The position numbers are program-made. A stretch of 64,000 nt of DNA, from NCBI RefSeq assembly GCF_988243305.1, contig NZ_OZ547136.1. One strand, given 5' to 3'. Shown here piece by piece: positions 9,001 through 24,000 of this stretch (positions are counted from its first letter, which is position 1; each line of letters begins with the position of its first letter).

Positions 9001-12000
9001 AATCAGGCGGTGCTGGTCAGTGGGAAAGACGCCACAGGCAATACCGTCACCGGCGCGCAGCTGCTAACGGTCGATACCCAACCGCCAACGCTTGCCATCA
9101 ACACCATCGCTCAGGACAACATCATCAGTGCTGCGGAACATAACGTCGCGCTGGTACTGAGCGGCACGTCGAATGCAGAAGCGGGGCAAACCGTAACACT
9201 GACCGTCAACGGGAAAAGCCATACAGCAACCGTCGGTAGCGACGGAACCTGGCAAGTGACGCTGCCTGCCACGGAAGTCCAGGCACTGGCGGAGGGTAAT
9301 TACGCTGTCAATGCCAGTGTCAGCGATCGGGCAGGGAACAGCACCAGCCACAGCGCGAATTTCACGGTAGACACCTCAGCACCCGTGGTCAGTGTTAATA
9401 CCGTGGCGGGCGACGATATTCTTAATAATGCCGAGCAGGCCGTCGCGCAGATCATCTCCGGACAAGTTAGCGGTGCTTCTCCTGGCGATACGGTAACGGT
9501 GAAATTGGGCACTCATGTCCTGACGGGCATCGTGCTGGCAGATGGCAGCTGGAATGTGGCGCTGGACCCGGCGGTAACCCGCACGCTGGATCGCGGAGCC
9601 AATACGATTTTCGTCACCGTGACAGATGCTGCAGGAAATACCGGCGCGGCGTCTCGGGCAATCACGCTGGTCGGTGTTTCTCCGTTGATCACCATTAACA
9701 CCGTCTCCGGCGATGACATTATCAGTGGCGCAGAAAAAGGTGCGCCACTGACCCTTAGCGGTAGCACTCAACAGGCCGAGACAGGACAAACCGTCACAGT
9801 AACCCTGGCTGGACAGAGTTTTACCACTACCGTGCAGGCTGATGGCTCCTGGAGTCTGACGGTACCTGCCGCCGCGATGGGAAATCTGCCTGACGGCGCG
9901 GTGGCGATTACCGCTTCTGTGACGGATCTCAGCGGCAATACCGGCAACACTTCCCGCACCATTACCGTCGATAGCCAGGCCCCGGCCTTAAGCATCGATC
10001 CACTGACCGCTGATAACATCATCAACGCCGCCGAAAGCGGGCAGGATCTGCCCATCACCGGCACCACCGATGCCCAGCCGGGGCAAACGGTGACGGTTAC
10101 GCTCAATGGGCAAACCTATCAGGGCATCGTGCAGTCAGACGGCACCTGGAGCGTGACCGTTCCCGCCGCCAATGTTGACGCACTGGCTGACGGCAACGCC
10201 ACGGTCACCGCCAGCGTGAACGATGTCGCCGGTAACCCGACCAGCGTTTCACGCGTGGCGCTGGTGGATGCCACGCCTCCGGTGGTGACCATTAATCCGG
10301 TGGCGACCGATAACGTCATCAACACGCCGGAACACACCCAGGCGCAAATCATCAGTGGCACGGTTACTGGCGCGCAGGCGGGCGATATTGTCACCGTTAC
10401 GTTAAATAATTCCGATTACACCACGGTGGTGGACGGTTCCGGCAACTGGAGTCTGGGTGTTCCGGCTTCCGTTGTCAGCGGACTGGTGGATGGCAGTTAT
10501 CCTGTCAGCGTCTCGGTAACCGACAAAGCCGGAAACACGGGCAGCCAGTCGCTGACCGTCACGGTCAATACCGCCGCGCCCCTTATCGGCATTAACAGCA
10601 TTGCGGGCGATGATGTGATTAACGCCAGCGAAAAAGGGGCCGATCTCCAGATCACCGGCACCAGCGATCAGCCTGTTAATACCGCCATCACCGTAACGCT
10701 GAACGGGCAAAATTACACCACTACAACCGACGCCTCCGGCAACTGGAGCGTCACCGTTCCGGCATCGGCGGTAACCGCACTGGGTCAGGCCAACTACACG
10801 GTAACAGCGGCGGTGACCAATAGTATCGGCAACAGCAACACCGCCAGCCATAACGTGCTGGTCGACAGCGCGCTGCCCGGCGTGACCATTAACCCGGTGG
10901 CAACCGACGATATTATTAACGCCGCCGAAGCAGGCGTCGCGCAAACCATCAGCGGGCAGGTTACTGGCGCGGAAGATGGCGACACGGTAACTATTACGTT
11001 GGGCGGTAATACTTATACGGCGACGGTGGGCAGCAATTTCACCTGGAGCGTGAGCGTTCCGGCGGCAGATATTCAGGCGCTGGGCAATGGCGATTTAACG
11101 GTGAGCGCCTCGGTCACCAATCAAAACGGCAACACCGGCAGCGGCACGCGGGATATCACCATCGACGCCAATCTACCCGGTCTGCGGGTCGATACGGTGG
11201 CGGGCGATGATGTGGTCAATATCATCGAGCATGGGCAGGCGCTGGTGATTACCGGCAGCAGCTCGGGGCTGGCTGAAGGCACGCCGCTTACCGTCACGAT
11301 TAATAATGTGGAATACATCACTGCGGTGCAGGCCGATGGTAGCTGGAGCGTGGGCGTCACGGCGGCGCAGGTTAGCGCCTGGCCTGCGGGGACGGTTAAT
11401 ATTGCCGTATCCGGGGAAAGTAGCGCCGAAAATCCGGTGAGCATTACGCATCCGGTTATGGTCGATCTCACTCCGGCGGCGATCACCATCAACACTATCG
11501 CCACGGACGACGTGATTAACGCCGCAGAAAAAGGCGCTGATTTAACCCTTTCCGGCACCACCACTAACGTAGAACCCGGTCAAACCGTCACTGTCACCTT
11601 TGGCGGTAAAAATTACACCGCCAGCGTGGCGAGCGATGGTAGCTGGACTGCCACCGTTCCCGCTGCCGATTTAGCGTTATTAACCGATGGCAGCGCCTCC
11701 ACGCAGGCCAGCGTCAGCAATATTAATGGCAATAGCGCCTCGGCGGTGCATAACTACAGCGTCGATAGCAGTGCCCCGACCATCATTATCAATACCGTTG
11801 CCAGCGACAATATCGTCAACGCCAGCGAAGCCGATGCGGGTGTGACGGTGAGCGGCAGCACCACTGCCGAGGCAGGGCAGATTGTTACGATAACGCTCAA
11901 TAGCCCGACCGTGCAGACGTATCAGGCAACGGTACAGGCCGACGGTAGCTGGAGTATTAATATTCCGGCGGCAGATCTTGAGGCATTGACCGATGGCAGC

Positions 12001-21000: not shown

Positions 21001-24000
21001 AACGACAAAGCGGGCAACCCCGGCAGCGCCAGCCATAATCTGGCGGTAGACACCACCGCGCCGGTTCTCACCATTAACACTGTGGCGGGCGATGACATTA
21101 TCAACGATGCCGAACATGCGCAGGCGCTGGTGATCTCCGGCACCAGCACGGGCGGGGAAGCGGGCGATGTGGTGAGCGTTGTGCTCAACGGCAAAACCTA
21201 CACCACCACCCTGGATGCCTCCGGCAACTGGAGCGTTGGCGTTCCAGCGGCGGATGTTGCGGCACTCGGTAGCGGTGCGCAGACCATCACCGCCAGCGTC
21301 AGCGATCGGGCAGGTAATAGCGACGACGCCAGCCGCACCGTGACCGTCAGCCTCAGCGCGCCAGTGATTAGCATCAACACCATCGCGGGCGATGATGTGA
21401 TCAACGCGACGGAAAAAGGATCGAATCTGGCGCTTTCCGGCACCAGCGATCAGCCTGCGGGTACGGCGATCACCGTGACGCTGAACGGACAAAACTACAG
21501 CGCCACCACCGACGCCTCCGGCAACTGGAGCGTTACCGTGCCTGCCTCTGCTGTCAGCGCGCTGGGCGAAGCCACCTACAGCGTGACGGCGAGCGTCAGC
21601 AATGCTCAGGGTAACAGCAGCACCGCCAGCCATAACGTGCAGGTCAATACCGCGCTACCGGGCGTCACCATTAATCCGGTAACGACGGACGATATTATTA
21701 ACGCCGCAGAAGCAGGCAGCGCGCAAACTATCAGCGGCCAGGTCACCGGGGCGGCGGCGGGCAGCACCGTCACCGTTGAACTGGGCGGTAAAACTTACAC
21801 CGCCACCGTCCAGGCTGATTTAAGTTGGAATGTGAGCGTACCTGCCGCCGACTGGCAGGCGCTGGGTAACGGTGAGTTAACCGTTAACGTCTCGGTAACC
21901 AACGCCGTTGGCAACACCGGTAGCGGCACGCGCGATATCACCATCGATGCCAGTCTACCCGGCCTGCGGGTGGATACCGTCGCGGGCGATGATGTGGTGA
22001 ATATTATCGAACACGCCCAGGCGCAGGTGATTACTGGCAGCAGTTCCGGTTTTGCCGCAGGTACGGCGTTGACGGTGGTGATTAATAACCAAACTTACGC
22101 CGCCACGGTGCTGGCAAACGGCAGCTGGAGCGTCGGCGTTCCGGCGGCGGATGTCAACAACTGGCCTGCGGGAACGCTGAACATTACCGTTAGCGGCGCG
22201 AACAGTGCCGGAACGCAAACCAGCATTACCCATCCGCTGACAGTTGATCTCAGCACTGTCGCCGTCAGCATAAACAGCATCACCAGCGATGATGTGATTA
22301 ACGCCGCCGAAAAAGGCGCGGCGCTAACGCTCTCCGGCAGCACGTCCGGCGTCGAAGCGGGGCAAACCGTTACCATTACTTTTGGCGGTAAAACCTACAC
22401 CACCACGGTGGCGGCAAACGGTAGCTGGAACACCACCGTTCCGGCGGCGGATATGGCGACGTTGCGTGATGGCGATGCCAGCGCCCAGGTGCGGGTGACT
22501 AACGTCAACGGCAACAGCGCCACGGCAACGCATGAATACAGCGTCGATAGCGCCGCGCCAACGGTCACCATCAACACCATTGCCAGCGATAACATCATCA
22601 ATGCCAGCGAAGCGGCGGCGGGCGTAACGGTGTCCGGCACCAGCACGGCGCAAACCGGGCAGACGCTCACCGTCACGCTTAATGGCACTAACTACCAGAC
22701 CACGGTGCAGGCAGACGGCAGCTGGAGCTTAACGCTGCCCGCCAGCGACTTAACCGCGCTTGCCAATAACGGCTACACTCTGACCGCCACGGTCAGCGAT
22801 CAGGCGGGTAACCCTGGCAGCGCCAGCAAAGGTGTGACCGTCGATACCACCGCGCCCGTCATCAGTTTCAACACCGTGGCGGGCGATGATGTGATTAACA
22901 ACGTCGAACACACTCAGGCGCAGATTATCAGTGGCACCGCCACGGGCGCGGTGGCGGGCGACCGCCTGGTGGTGACCATCGCCGGGCAGCAGTATGTCAC
23001 CAGCACCGATGCCAGCGGCAACTGGAGCGTTGGCGTGCCTGCCAGCGTGATTTCCGGCCTTGCAGACGGCACGGTGACCATCAGCGCCACCATTACCGAT
23101 AGCGCAGGCAACAGCAGCACCCAGACGCACAACGTACAGGTAAACACGGCGGCAGTGTCGCTCTCGGTCAGCACCATCAGCGGCGATAATATTATTAACG
23201 CCGCCGAAGCGGGCAGTGCGCTGACCCTGAGCGGCACCGGAACGAACTTTGCCGCAGGTACAGTGGTGACCGTGTTGCTTAACGGCAAAGGCTACAGCGC
23301 TACCATTCAGAACAACGGGAGCTGGAGTGTGAACGTGCCTGCGGCGGACGTTGCAGCACTCAGTGATGGCACCAGCTACACGGTTAGCGCCTCCGCGCAG
23401 GACAGCGCCGGAAACAGCGCCACGGCCTCACGCAGCGTGGCGGTGGATCTCACCGCGCCGGTTATCAGCATAAACACGGTTTCAACGGACGACCGACTCA
23501 ACGCCGCCGAACAGCAGCAGCCGTTAACCCTTAACGGCTCGACCAGCGCGGAAGTAGGGCAGACGGTAACCGTCACCTTTGGCGGCAAAACTTATACCGC
23601 CACGGTGGCCGCCAATGGCACCTGGGCGCTGAACGTGCCTGCGGCAGATCTGGCCGCGCTCGCGCAGGGCGCACAGACCATTACCGCCAGCGTGAACGAT
23701 CGCGCCGGTAACCCCGGTCAAACCACGCACGCCCTGACCGTCGATACCGTTGCGCCAACGGTCACCATCGCCACGGTGGCGGGTGACGATATTATCAACA
23801 ACGCCGAACAGCTCGCTGGGCAAACCATCAGCGGCACCACCACCGCTGAAGTGGGCCAGACGGTGACCGTCACCTTTAACGGTCAGAGCTGGACTGCAAC
23901 GGTCGGCAGCGGCGGAAGCTGGTCGGTGTTTATTCCGGCGCAGCAGTTTGCCGGATTAAGCGACGGCAGCTACACCATTAGCGCGACGGTTAGCGATCAG

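What the first reader, a model, noticed from the sequence alone, without database searches (positions are those of the whole stretch)
10588..23170. About 1.8-kb higher-order repeat (six Ig-like domains per unit, ~7 copies) inside the adhesin gene
Beyond the ~100-aa domain periodicity, equivalent landmark codons recur every 1794-1803 bp, and long stretches of near-identical DNA recur once per unit. Because the unit length is a multiple of 3, unequal homologous recombination would add or delete six-domain blocks in frame, giving a built-in way to vary stalk length between strains or clones. The same property makes this region prone to collapse or mis-assembly with short reads, so the true copy number may differ from what is shown.
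Basis: seen in the sequence. Interest (0 to 1): 0.55.

Follow-up and report, generated by a model that had tools for sequence, protein, structure and literature searches.

The report
Six-domain super-repeat in E. coli adhesin
The stalk of the giant E. coli surface adhesin SiiEA is built from seven copies of an old six-domain block; the pattern is real and is shared with related bacteria, but it is a slowly evolving relic of block duplication, not a fast length switch or an assembly error.

Summary
Observation confirmed. Window 10591-23166 lies inside a 6925-aa ORF (7966-28743). This ORF is E. coli siiEA, the O-island-28 adhesin secreted by a type I system. The stretch holds 42 Ig-like extender domains arranged as 7 tandem units of six domain classes (A-F), each unit 1794-1803 bp. 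Same-class domains are 72% identical in DNA on average (62-91%); other pairs are 59% (maximum 67%). None of 5000 permutations reached this.

Interpretation partly supported. One E. coli lineage (86 of about 955 carrier genomes) lacks exactly one unit (1803 bp, in frame, ORF intact). Related genera keep the A-F order with about 2 to 7 units. So six-domain blocks are how the stalk changed length over evolution.

The array is old and nearly frozen within E. coli. Between-unit dS is about 1.0, against 0.16-0.23 between alleles. Every domain has a positional orthologue in all ten other alleles I decomposed. About half of carriers have the same gene length. Other length variants are 1-domain, 3-domain or smaller, so changes are not limited to whole units.

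The longest exact internal repeat is 64 bp, which makes short-read collapse unlikely and gives RecA a poor substrate. Multi-domain block duplication is a known mode of repeat growth. Interest is low to moderate.

The parts
6502..7857 (+). TolC-family outer-membrane component of the dedicated type I secretion system
   Evidence: TIGR01844, E 2.2e-124, 415.7 bits against a cutoff of 225
7966..28743 (+). siiEA: 6925-aa giant adhesin secreted by a type I system (the O-island 28 adhesin of E. coli)
   Evidence: Single intact ORF. The N-terminus matches NF047714 adhesin_SiiEA with 510.8 bits against a cutoff of 425. It is collinear with genes annotated siiEA in E. coli genomes at 94-97% identity.
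7966..9096 (+). N-terminal BapA-prefix/SiiEA region plus the first Ig-like domains
   Evidence: NF033677 at 1.7e-19 and NF047714 covering aa 1-230
9097..10590 (+). Five extender domains before the array (p0-p4). p2, p3 and p4 are a degenerate D-E-F 'unit 0'. The window allele lacks the A0-B0-C0 domains that 27 E. coli genomes and Enterobacter carry.
   Evidence: Class affinities; E7-1N7 decomposition; frequency; Enterobacter and Lelliottia domain strings
10591..12393 (+). Unit 1 of the repeat (domains A1-F1), 1803 bp
12394..14187 (+). Unit 2 (A2-F2), 1794 bp. With F1 it forms the youngest duplicated tract, matching F2-A3-B3-C3 at 81-91%.
14188..15981 (+). Unit 3 (A3-F3), 1794 bp. The deletion in the E-1246 lineage starts at the D3/E3 boundary (about 15385).
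15982..17781 (+). Unit 4 (A4-F4), 1800 bp. A4 is an old subtype shared with Enterobacter and Lelliottia, and it is the domain deleted in O157:H7.
17782..19575 (+). Unit 5 (A5-F5), 1794 bp
19576..21372 (+). Unit 6 (A6-F6), 1797 bp. A6 is an old subtype shared across genera.
21373..23166 (+). Unit 7 (A7-F7), 1794 bp. E7 and F7 are positionally conserved as the last unit in every genus examined.
23167..24363 (+). Four extender domains after the array (q0-q3), positionally conserved across genera
24388..25980 (+). A second, separate repeat family: five copies of about 321 bp (106-107 aa). It has its own copy-number polymorphism, being about 318-321 bp shorter in O157:H7 and in FDAARGOS_1285.
   Evidence: TRF period 321; motif positions
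26599..28740 (+). C-terminal FG-GAP/VCBS region (the presumed ligand-binding tip) and the type I secretion C-terminal target domain
   Evidence: TIGR03661, E 6.3e-9; PF13517, PF01839 and PF00353 precomputed on close homologues
28747..30909 (+). Type I secretion ABC permease/ATPase (LssB type)
   Evidence: TIGR03375, 832 bits against a cutoff of 693
30906..32081 (+). HlyD-family periplasmic adaptor of the type I secretion system
   Evidence: TIGR01843, 328 bits against a cutoff of 209

Best explanation
Window 10591-23166 encodes the central stalk ('extender') of SiiEA, the giant E. coli adhesin exported by the adjacent TolC/ABC/HlyD type I secretion genes. The stalk is a chain of roughly 100-aa, Ca2+-stabilised Ig-like domains of the MpAFP-RII type. 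The 1.8-kb periodicity is the footprint of multi-domain block duplication. Six domain classes (A-F) diverged first, probably from an older three-domain unit. The six-domain block was then amplified in tandem. The amplification is old. Some unit subtypes (A4, A6, F5, F7) predate the split between Escherichia and Enterobacter/Lelliottia. Other units arose by later, lineage-specific duplications. Every domain has stayed under purifying selection. Gain and loss of whole blocks explains why homologues have about 2 to 7 units. Within E. coli the array is almost static, because the units are now too diverged to recombine efficiently. Rare length changes arise by short-homology crossovers at the one DNA landmark that every domain shares. 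These remove 1, 3 or 6 domains. Shown here: the repeat, its age, positional orthology, the natural one-unit deletion, and the cross-genus differences in unit number. Inferred: the extender role (by homology), the order of duplication events, and the crossover mechanism.
For: Repeat structure. Gene identity and secretion genes: NF047714 510.8 bits, Ca_tandemer E 6.7e-162 over six domains, TIGR03661, TolC/LssB/HlyD; annotated siiEA in 959 of 5426 complete E. coli genomes. Domain type: the closest solved structure is 4P99, the MpAFP RII tetra-tandemer, at E 3.6e-55, and Pfam gives Big_13. The extender role of this fold is described in PMC4083281, and the length requirement for SiiE in PMC6272769. 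Age: same-phase dS has a median of 1.03 with dN/dS 0.19, the youngest pair has dS 0.29, and allelic dS is 0.16-0.23. Positional orthology at 87-100% nt holds in six E. coli alleles and, apart from one F1 best matching F2 in E7-1N7, in four more. It holds at 85-98% aa in Escherichia sp. E1V33 and Pseudocitrobacter faecalis. Block turnover: the 1803-bp in-frame deletion is present in 86 genomes. The class-C motif is spaced 1794-1803 bp apart in Enterobacter, Lelliottia, Pseudocitrobacter, Huaxiibacter and Escherichia sp.. The A-F order is kept with 3 units in L. nimipressuralis, 5 in E. soli, about 2 in Rosenbergiella and 7 in E. coli. Neighbouring units are 88-98% identical in Lelliottia, Huaxiibacter and E. 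cloacae. Trees mix cross-genus subtypes with lineage-specific clades. Stability in E. coli: 30 of 60 evenly sampled carriers have spans of 21,987-22,007 bp for a 22,001-bp query, and the 60 best hits span 22,000-22,010 bp. Crossovers lie in 8-29 bp identity patches at the GDD(I/V)(I/L)N landmark. Multi-domain duplication is the usual mode of repeat growth (PMC1553488).
Against: Gene lengths were read for about 130 of the 959 carriers, so rare 8-unit or 5-unit alleles could have been missed. Unit counts outside Escherichia rest on partial loci and on mostly draft assemblies, several of which end inside the array. The per-class trees are not congruent. The history therefore also includes partial conversions or shifted duplication boundaries that I did not resolve. 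The parental sequences at the deletion junctions are proxies taken from other alleles, so the microhomology lengths are approximate. No experiment here shows that this protein is an adhesin or that stalk length matters for it.
Confidence: 0.8

Rival explanations
1. Active contingency locus. RecA-mediated unequal crossing-over between units frequently adds or removes six-domain blocks, so stalk length varies between strains or clones as an adaptive switch.
For: The one-unit in-frame deletion is fixed in 86 genomes with an intact ORF. Unit number differs between genera, and some relatives have nearly identical neighbouring units.
Against: Units are 62-91% identical, the longest exact match is 64 bp, and only 6 matches are 30 bp or longer. 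I found one whole-unit event among about 955 carriers, with a junction that is 100% identical in all 40 listed genomes, which points to one ancestral event. Length is constant across hundreds of diverse strains and within the O157:H7 clone. Positional orthology is intact with no homogenisation. The other variants are not whole units.
Confidence: 0.07
2. Selected functional super-repeat. The six classes are not interchangeable, for example because the interfaces between neighbouring domains are specific or because binding is periodic. Only changes that keep the A-F order would then survive, and this selection maintains the period rather than mutational bias alone.
For: Class identity and order are conserved from Escherichia to Rosenbergiella: 54-63% identity to the matching class in distant genera against 40-43% to other classes. 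dN/dS is 0.19. In E. coli both out-of-phase single-domain deletions, F3|B4 in O157:H7 and C2|E2 in O145 RM9154-C1, occur in pseudogenes. The in-phase 6-domain deletion and the 3-domain difference occur in intact ORFs.
Against: There are only four events, and Fisher's exact test gives about 0.17 by my own count. Pseudogenisation may simply have relaxed selection on everything. In-phase partners are also the most similar DNA, so a mutational bias could give the same order. MpAFP works with about 120 identical domains (PMC4083281), so the fold itself needs no class alternation. This idea is compatible with the best explanation rather than exclusive of it.
Confidence: 0.2
3. Assembly artefact. The copy number or the repeat itself was produced or collapsed by short-read assembly.
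For: Relatives with 96-98% identical units show broken contigs or scaffold gaps, as in Huaxiibacter, Trabulsiella and E. mori. RTX adhesins are often mis-assembled in general (bioRxiv 10.1101/2025.09.30.679566; PMC4083281).
Against: The longest exact repeat is 64 bp. The ORF is intact. Single ungapped or nearly ungapped alignments of 22 kb match complete genomes from many laboratories at the same length. The same 1803/1794/1800 spacing appears in another Escherichia species.
Confidence: 0.02

Closest known systems
E. coli SiiEA / O-island 28 RTX adhesin (Z0609 and Z0615, 'rtxA28/rtxB28' in EDL933; ECUMN_0527 in UMN026)
   Same: It is the same gene at the same locus (copA-glsA-ybaT-tolC-siiEA-ABC-hlyD-cueR). 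Identity to annotated siiEA genes is 94-97%. The locus has been linked experimentally to adherence (PMC12758282).
   Different: The papers I found describe 'Ig-like repeats' but do not mention a six-domain super-repeat or its copy number. The O157:H7 copy studied there is a disrupted version of the intact 6925-aa gene seen here.
MpAFP/MpIBP region II extender of Marinomonas primoryensis (PDB 4P99)
   Same: It has the same Ca2+-stabilised Ig-like extender fold (E 3.6e-55; NCBIfam Ca_tandemer). It has the same inferred role: projecting a C-terminal binding region away from the cell in an adhesin exported by a type I system.
   Different: RII is about 120 copies of one repeat that are identical even in DNA (PMC4083281). 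It has no higher-order unit and is highly recombinogenic and hard to assemble. Here neighbouring domains are only about 44% identical in protein, and units are 62-91% identical in DNA.
Super-repeats of nebulin (7 modules) and titin; multi-domain block duplication (Bjorklund et al. 2006, PMC1553488)
   Same: The formal pattern is the same: domains one period apart are more alike than neighbours, produced by tandem duplication of several domains at a time in the middle of the array.
   Different: Those are eukaryotic, intron-containing genes. The nebulin period matches a physical partner, the thin-filament repeat (my own knowledge). No partner with a six-domain period is known here.
Salmonella SiiE (53 BIg domains, SPI-4)
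   Same: It is a giant adhesin exported by a type I system, with a Ca2+-binding Ig-like stalk. Stalk length is functionally required: deleting more than 5 domains abolishes SiiE-dependent invasion (PMC6272769).
   Different: It has a different N-terminus and a different tip. I did not test SiiE for a higher-order period.

Membership tests
SiiEA (NCBIfam NF047714, BapA-related adhesin SiiEA) | N-terminal 229-residue model matched above the curated cutoff | tested here: met
   510.8 bits against a cutoff of 425, E 3.8e-154, aa 1-230. PGAP names the orthologues siiEA.
Type I-secreted RTX/BapA-type giant adhesin | [quoted passage not shown] | tested here: met
   TIGR01844, TIGR03375 and TIGR01843, all above their cutoffs, at 6502-7857, 28747-30909 and 30906-32081
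Type I-secreted RTX/BapA-type giant adhesin | C-terminal type I secretion target domain and RTX-type Ca-binding repeats | tested here: met
   TIGR03661 at E 6.3e-9, 36.9 bits against a cutoff of 17.6. PF00353 is precomputed on 99%-identical C-terminal fragments. My regex found only one clear GGxGxD-type motif, so the RTX block is short.
Type I-secreted RTX/BapA-type giant adhesin | Long tandem array of Ca2+-stabilised Ig-like extender domains | tested here: met
   NF033510 Ca_tandemer at E 6.7e-162 with 6 stretches per unit; 4P99 at E 3.6e-55; Big_13
Type I-secreted RTX/BapA-type giant adhesin | Surface display and adhesion shown experimentally | not testable with these tools
   Only published work on the disrupted O157:H7 locus is available (PMC12758282).
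Higher-order (super-)repeat made by multi-domain block duplication | Domains n positions apart are more similar than neighbours, in a constant phase along the array | tested here: met
   At a lag of 6 domains identity is 73% nt and 71% aa, against 59% and 44% at lags 1-5. The same holds at lag 12. Zero of 5000 permutations reached the observed value.
Higher-order (super-)repeat made by multi-domain block duplication | Similarity reflects common descent and not only protein-level constraint | tested here: met
   Synonymous differences are lower for same-phase pairs (median pS 0.56, down to 0.24) than for adjacent domains (0.65). For the oldest pairs the signal is close to saturation.
Hypervariable tandem-repeat contingency locus (identical-repeat adhesins such as MpAFP RII) | Repeat copies that are nearly identical in DNA and give long recombination substrates | tested here: not met
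   Units are 62-91% identical, the longest exact match is 64 bp, and 6 matches are 30 bp or longer.
Hypervariable tandem-repeat contingency locus (identical-repeat adhesins such as MpAFP RII) | Copy number differs among close relatives or clones | tested here: not met
   Spans are identical across the 60 best hits and across 30 of 60 evenly sampled carriers. Length is constant within O157:H7. I found one unit-level event, shared by 86 genomes through a junction that is 100% identical in all 40 listed. The census is a sample, not complete.
LapA-type adhesin controlled by LapG/LapD | LapG protease and LapD receptor genes, and an N-terminal cleavage site | not tested
   A TAAG motif lies at aa 97-100. 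I saw no lapG- or lapD-like ORF among the annotated neighbours, but I ran no dedicated search.

The most novel reading that the evidence does not exclude
The six-domain unit may be a selected structural module of this adhesin family across Enterobacterales. Under this reading the six classes have non-interchangeable neighbour interfaces or roles. Only changes that keep the A-F order would give a working stalk, so the stalk would be a patterned rod and not a generic spacer. Three observations are compatible with this. The A-F order is conserved from Escherichia to Rosenbergiella. Each class is under purifying selection. In E. coli, out-of-phase single-domain deletions were seen only in pseudogenes, while in-phase changes sit in intact genes.
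Probability: 0.2. Interest if true: 0.55.

Novelty: new member of a known kind. Interest (0 to 1): 0.3.

Why it matters
The work gives a precise map of the stalk of a clinically relevant E. coli adhesin: 42 domains in 6 classes and 7 units, plus a degenerate unit 0. It shows that the layout is stable enough to serve as a positional coordinate system across strains and even genera. It documents natural length alleles that could be compared for adhesion: plus 3 domains, minus 6 domains and minus 1 domain. It also shows that the two 'RTX proteins' studied in O157:H7 look like fragments of one ancestral gene. For genome scanning, the lesson is that a higher-order repeat inside a gene does not by itself signal rapid copy-number variation or assembly collapse. 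Divergence between units and the longest exact match are what decide that.

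Tried and rejected
(1) Tandem Repeats Finder (longest period 500) did not report the 300-bp or 1.8-kb periods. It found only the separate 321-bp C-terminal repeat, so I wrote my own autocorrelation and domain-matrix scripts.

(2) I ran the search for homologous proteins with the C-terminal 714 aa to collect full-length homologue sizes. Every hit was 1248 aa or shorter, that is a fragment, or the database lacks giant proteins. It was useless for copy number.

(3) A complete census of gene length in all 959 carriers was not possible, because search_dna_similar lists at most 60 rows. 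I used the best 60 hits, an even sample of 60, two allele-specific queries (the deletion junction and the extra A0-C0 domains), and 12 fetched loci.

(4) Literature searches for 'SiiEA', 'higher-order repeat' and 'super-repeat' combined with adhesin terms found no description of this periodicity. The library holds only open-access papers, so absence is weak evidence.

(5) I considered convergence as the cause of same-phase similarity. I rejected it for the younger units because synonymous sites also agree.

(6) I considered assembly collapse and rejected it.

(7) I considered RecA-type homologous exchange for the observed deletions. The crossover patches are only 8-29 bp, so short-homology or slippage events are at least as likely. 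This stays unresolved because the true parental sequences are unknown.

Full report
WHAT IS THERE

The finding lies inside one intact 6925-aa ORF at window 7966-28743 on the + strand. The N-terminus matches the NCBIfam model for 'BapA-related adhesin SiiEA' above its curated cutoff (510.8 bits against 425). Each roughly 100-aa repeat matches 'Ca2+-stabilized repeat-containing adhesin'. The C-terminus carries a type I secretion target domain. The gene is flanked by a TolC-family gene (6502-7857), an LssB-type ABC exporter (28747-30909) and a HlyD adaptor (30906-32081).

The window is E. coli. The gcl-all region is 99.7% identical to an E. coli genome. The locus sits between copA-glsA-ybaT and cueR. 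This is the O-island 28 locus of O157:H7, and PGAP annotates it as siiEA (PMC12758282; PMC3256949). Of 5426 complete E. coli genomes, 959 carry it.

The closest solved structure to one repeat unit is the MpAFP region II tetra-tandemer, 4P99, at E 3.6e-55. Pfam calls the domains Big_13. By homology, the repeats form the Ca2+-rigidified extender of an RTX-type adhesin (PMC4083281).

CHECKING THE OBSERVATION

- The best in-frame autocorrelation lag between 8.5 and 24.3 kb is 1794 bp, with identity 0.50. Lag 300 gives 0.44 and the background is 0.31.
- Identity at lags 1794-1803 stays at 0.67-0.90 from about 10.07 to 21.4 kb.
- Landmark codons place 42 domains in seven units. Unit starts are 10591, 12394, 14188, 15982, 17782, 19576 and 21373, and the array ends at 23166. 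Unit lengths are 1803, 1794, 1794, 1800, 1794, 1797 and 1794 bp.
- Same-phase domains average 72% nt and 70% aa identity (range 62-91% nt). All other pairs average 59% nt and 45% aa, with a maximum of 67% nt.
- None of 5000 shuffles of domain order reached the observed value.
- A class-C motif occurs exactly once per unit: 7 matches against 0 expected.
- Two extra layers exist. The three domains just upstream (9694-10590) are a degenerate D-E-F 'unit 0'. There is also an older, weak three-domain periodicity, with A resembling D, B resembling E and C resembling F (p=1.5e-11).
- The one overstatement is 'near-identical DNA'. Only F1-A2-B2-C2 against F2-A3-B3-C3 reaches 81-91%. The longest exact repeat in the gene is 64 bp, and only six are 30 bp or longer.

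HOW OLD IS IT

Same-phase paralogues differ by a median dS of 1.03 with dN/dS 0.19. The youngest pair, A2/A3, has dS 0.29. Alleles of the same domain in different E. coli strains differ by dS 0.16-0.23.

I decomposed ten other E. coli alleles into domains. Every domain matched its positional orthologue in the window best (87-100% nt), apart from one F1 domain in E7-1N7 that matched F2 slightly better. The same holds at 85-98% aa for Escherichia sp. E1V33 and Pseudocitrobacter faecalis. So all seven units existed before these lineages split, and the copies show no homogenisation.

IS COPY NUMBER VARIABLE IN E. COLI

I used a 22,001-bp query that spans the whole gene.

- The 60 best genomes gave single alignments spanning 22,000-22,010 bp.
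- In an even sample of 60 from all 959 carriers, 30 were single full-length alignments spanning 21,987-22,007 bp, at identities down to 93.7%.
- The O157:H7 rows all had the same span, within about 10 bp.

Fetched loci gave these length classes.

| Gene length | Example strains | Difference from the window allele |
|---|---|---|
| 20,778 bp | window, O55:H7 DEC5D | none |
| 18,975 bp | E-1246, Z0117EC0062 | -1803 bp; lacks exactly E3-F3-A4-B4-C4-D4; ORF intact |
| 21,672 bp | E7-1N7 | +894 bp; extra A0-B0-C0 domains complete unit 0 |
| 20,748 bp | PRO_A-1490 | -30 bp |
| 20,727 bp | NCTC10444 | -51 bp |
| 20,460 bp | FDAARGOS_1285 | -318 bp; one C-terminal 321-bp repeat |
| 20,478 bp | O145 RM9154-C1 | -300 bp; domain D2; pseudogene |
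| 20,159 bp | O157:H7 | lacks domain A4 and one 321-bp repeat; frameshifts; pseudogene |
| 19,655 bp | O139:H1 | out-of-frame 1.1-kb deletion; pseudogene |

The one-unit deletion junction is at least 99% identical in 86 of 955 genomes, and it was 100% identical in all 40 listed. That is consistent with one ancestral event. The extra A0-C0 domains occur in 27 genomes.

All three mapped domain-level deletions have their crossover in the GDD(I/V)(I/L)N landmark shared by every domain, within 8-29 bp of identity. In-frame length change is therefore a property of the 300-bp domain register, not of the 1.8-kb unit. The events look like short-homology exchanges, not efficient homologous recombination. 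This last point is an inference, because the parental sequences are proxies.

BEYOND E. COLI

A degenerate DNA pattern for the class-C motif found 46 stretches in one-genome-per-species contigs. Spacings were 1794-1803 bp, or multiples of these, in Enterobacter (several species), Lelliottia, Pseudocitrobacter, Huaxiibacter and another Escherichia species. I stitched adjacent blocks and classified the domains. The A-F order is retained everywhere, with 54-63% aa identity to the matching E. coli class in distant genera against 40-43% to other classes. Unit numbers differ:

- about 2 in Rosenbergiella
- 3 plus unit 0 in L. nimipressuralis
- 5 plus unit 0 in E. soli
- at least 5 in E. cloacae and Lelliottia sp. 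V86_10
- 7 in Escherichia

Trees of classes A, C and F show subtypes shared across genera (A4, A6, F5, F7). They also show lineage-specific clusters, such as E. coli A1/2/3/5/7 and three nearly identical A6-type copies in Lelliottia. Neighbouring units reach 88-98% identity in Lelliottia, Huaxiibacter and E. cloacae. Over long times the stalk has therefore grown and shrunk by six-domain blocks. Some relatives have done so recently, and there the short-read assemblies do break (Huaxiibacter and Trabulsiella fragments).

VERDICT ON THE INTERPRETATION

The claim of a built-in way to vary length between strains or clones is not supported for this species. The array is diverged, positionally conserved and nearly invariant. 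Most of the observed length variants are not whole units.

The assembly concern is not supported for this window. The longest exact repeat is 64 bp, and hundreds of independent complete genomes have the same length.

COMPARISON WITH WHAT IS KNOWN

The gene and its secretion system are known (PMC12758282; PMC3256949). Growth of domain arrays by duplication of several domains at a time is the rule rather than the exception, and the nebulin 7-module super-repeat is the classic case (PMC1553488). MpAFP shows the opposite extreme, about 120 repeats that are identical in DNA (PMC4083281). For Salmonella SiiE, stalk length is needed for function (PMC6272769). That gives a plausible selective reason to keep the length, but it was not tested here.

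I found no paper describing the six-domain period of SiiEA or its conservation across genera. I therefore rate this as a new member of a known kind.

WHAT REMAINS OPEN

It is unclear why the six-class order is so strictly kept across genera. Mutational bias could explain it, because in-phase partners are the most similar DNA. Selection for class-specific neighbour interfaces could also explain it. In E. coli the two out-of-phase single-domain deletions are found only in pseudogenes, while the in-phase changes are in intact genes. With four events this is only a hint.

Noticed in passing
L001 1990-22148 (E. coli O157:H7 Z1813), compared with L002 2561-23338 (O55:H7 DEC5D): In O157:H7 the siiEA gene is broken into three ORFs of 1461, 1396 and 3782 aa. 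It lacks domain A4 and one 321-bp C-terminal repeat. O55:H7 has the intact 6925-aa gene. The two 'RTX proteins' RtxA28 and RtxB28 (Z0609, Z0615) studied in PMC12758282 therefore look like fragments of one ancestral adhesin gene.
   Followed up: partly
window 24388-25980: There is a second, unrelated repeat family: five copies of about 321 bp (106-107 aa, motif DTGxSxxDF(I/V)T). It has its own copy-number polymorphism, being about 318-321 bp shorter in O157:H7 and in strain FDAARGOS_1285.
   Followed up: partly
window 7966-28743 compared with L002, L003, L004 and L006: Allelic synonymous divergence of siiEA among E. coli strains is 0.16-0.23. From my own knowledge, that seems high for E. coli chromosomal genes. 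Identity is also mosaic: the O139:H1 allele (L006) is 99-100% identical to the window from B6 to E7 but 87-97% elsewhere. This suggests recombination between strains inside the gene.
   Followed up: no
window 9394-9694 boundary; L054 5113-6006: Twenty-seven E. coli genomes, including CE10 and E7-1N7, carry three extra domains (A0-B0-C0) that complete a 'unit 0'. Enterobacter and Lelliottia have them too. The common E. coli allele, including the window, probably lost three domains.
   Followed up: yes
window 8254-8265 (aa 97-100 of SiiEA): A TAAG motif follows the BapA-prefix region. It resembles the LapG cleavage site of LapA-type adhesins. No lapG- or lapD-like gene was apparent among the annotated neighbours.
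   Followed up: no
window 33165-34181 (- strand): A YadA-like autotransporter adhesin gene lies just downstream of cueR. Its length differs between strains (1017, 1050 and 1311 bp in the fetched loci), so this short region holds a second variable adhesin.
   Followed up: no
window 10402-27150 (- strand): Many antisense ORFs of 150-350 aa are listed inside siiEA. They recur with the repeat and are most likely by-products of the GC-rich repetitive coding sequence, not genes.
   Followed up: no
H130, NZ_CP135595.1 (E. coli GDSC2227PM): One genome keeps the TolC-like and ABC genes but matches only about 5% of the query. Nearly the whole adhesin gene is deleted, leaving a fragment annotated as a prefix-like domain.
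   Followed up: no
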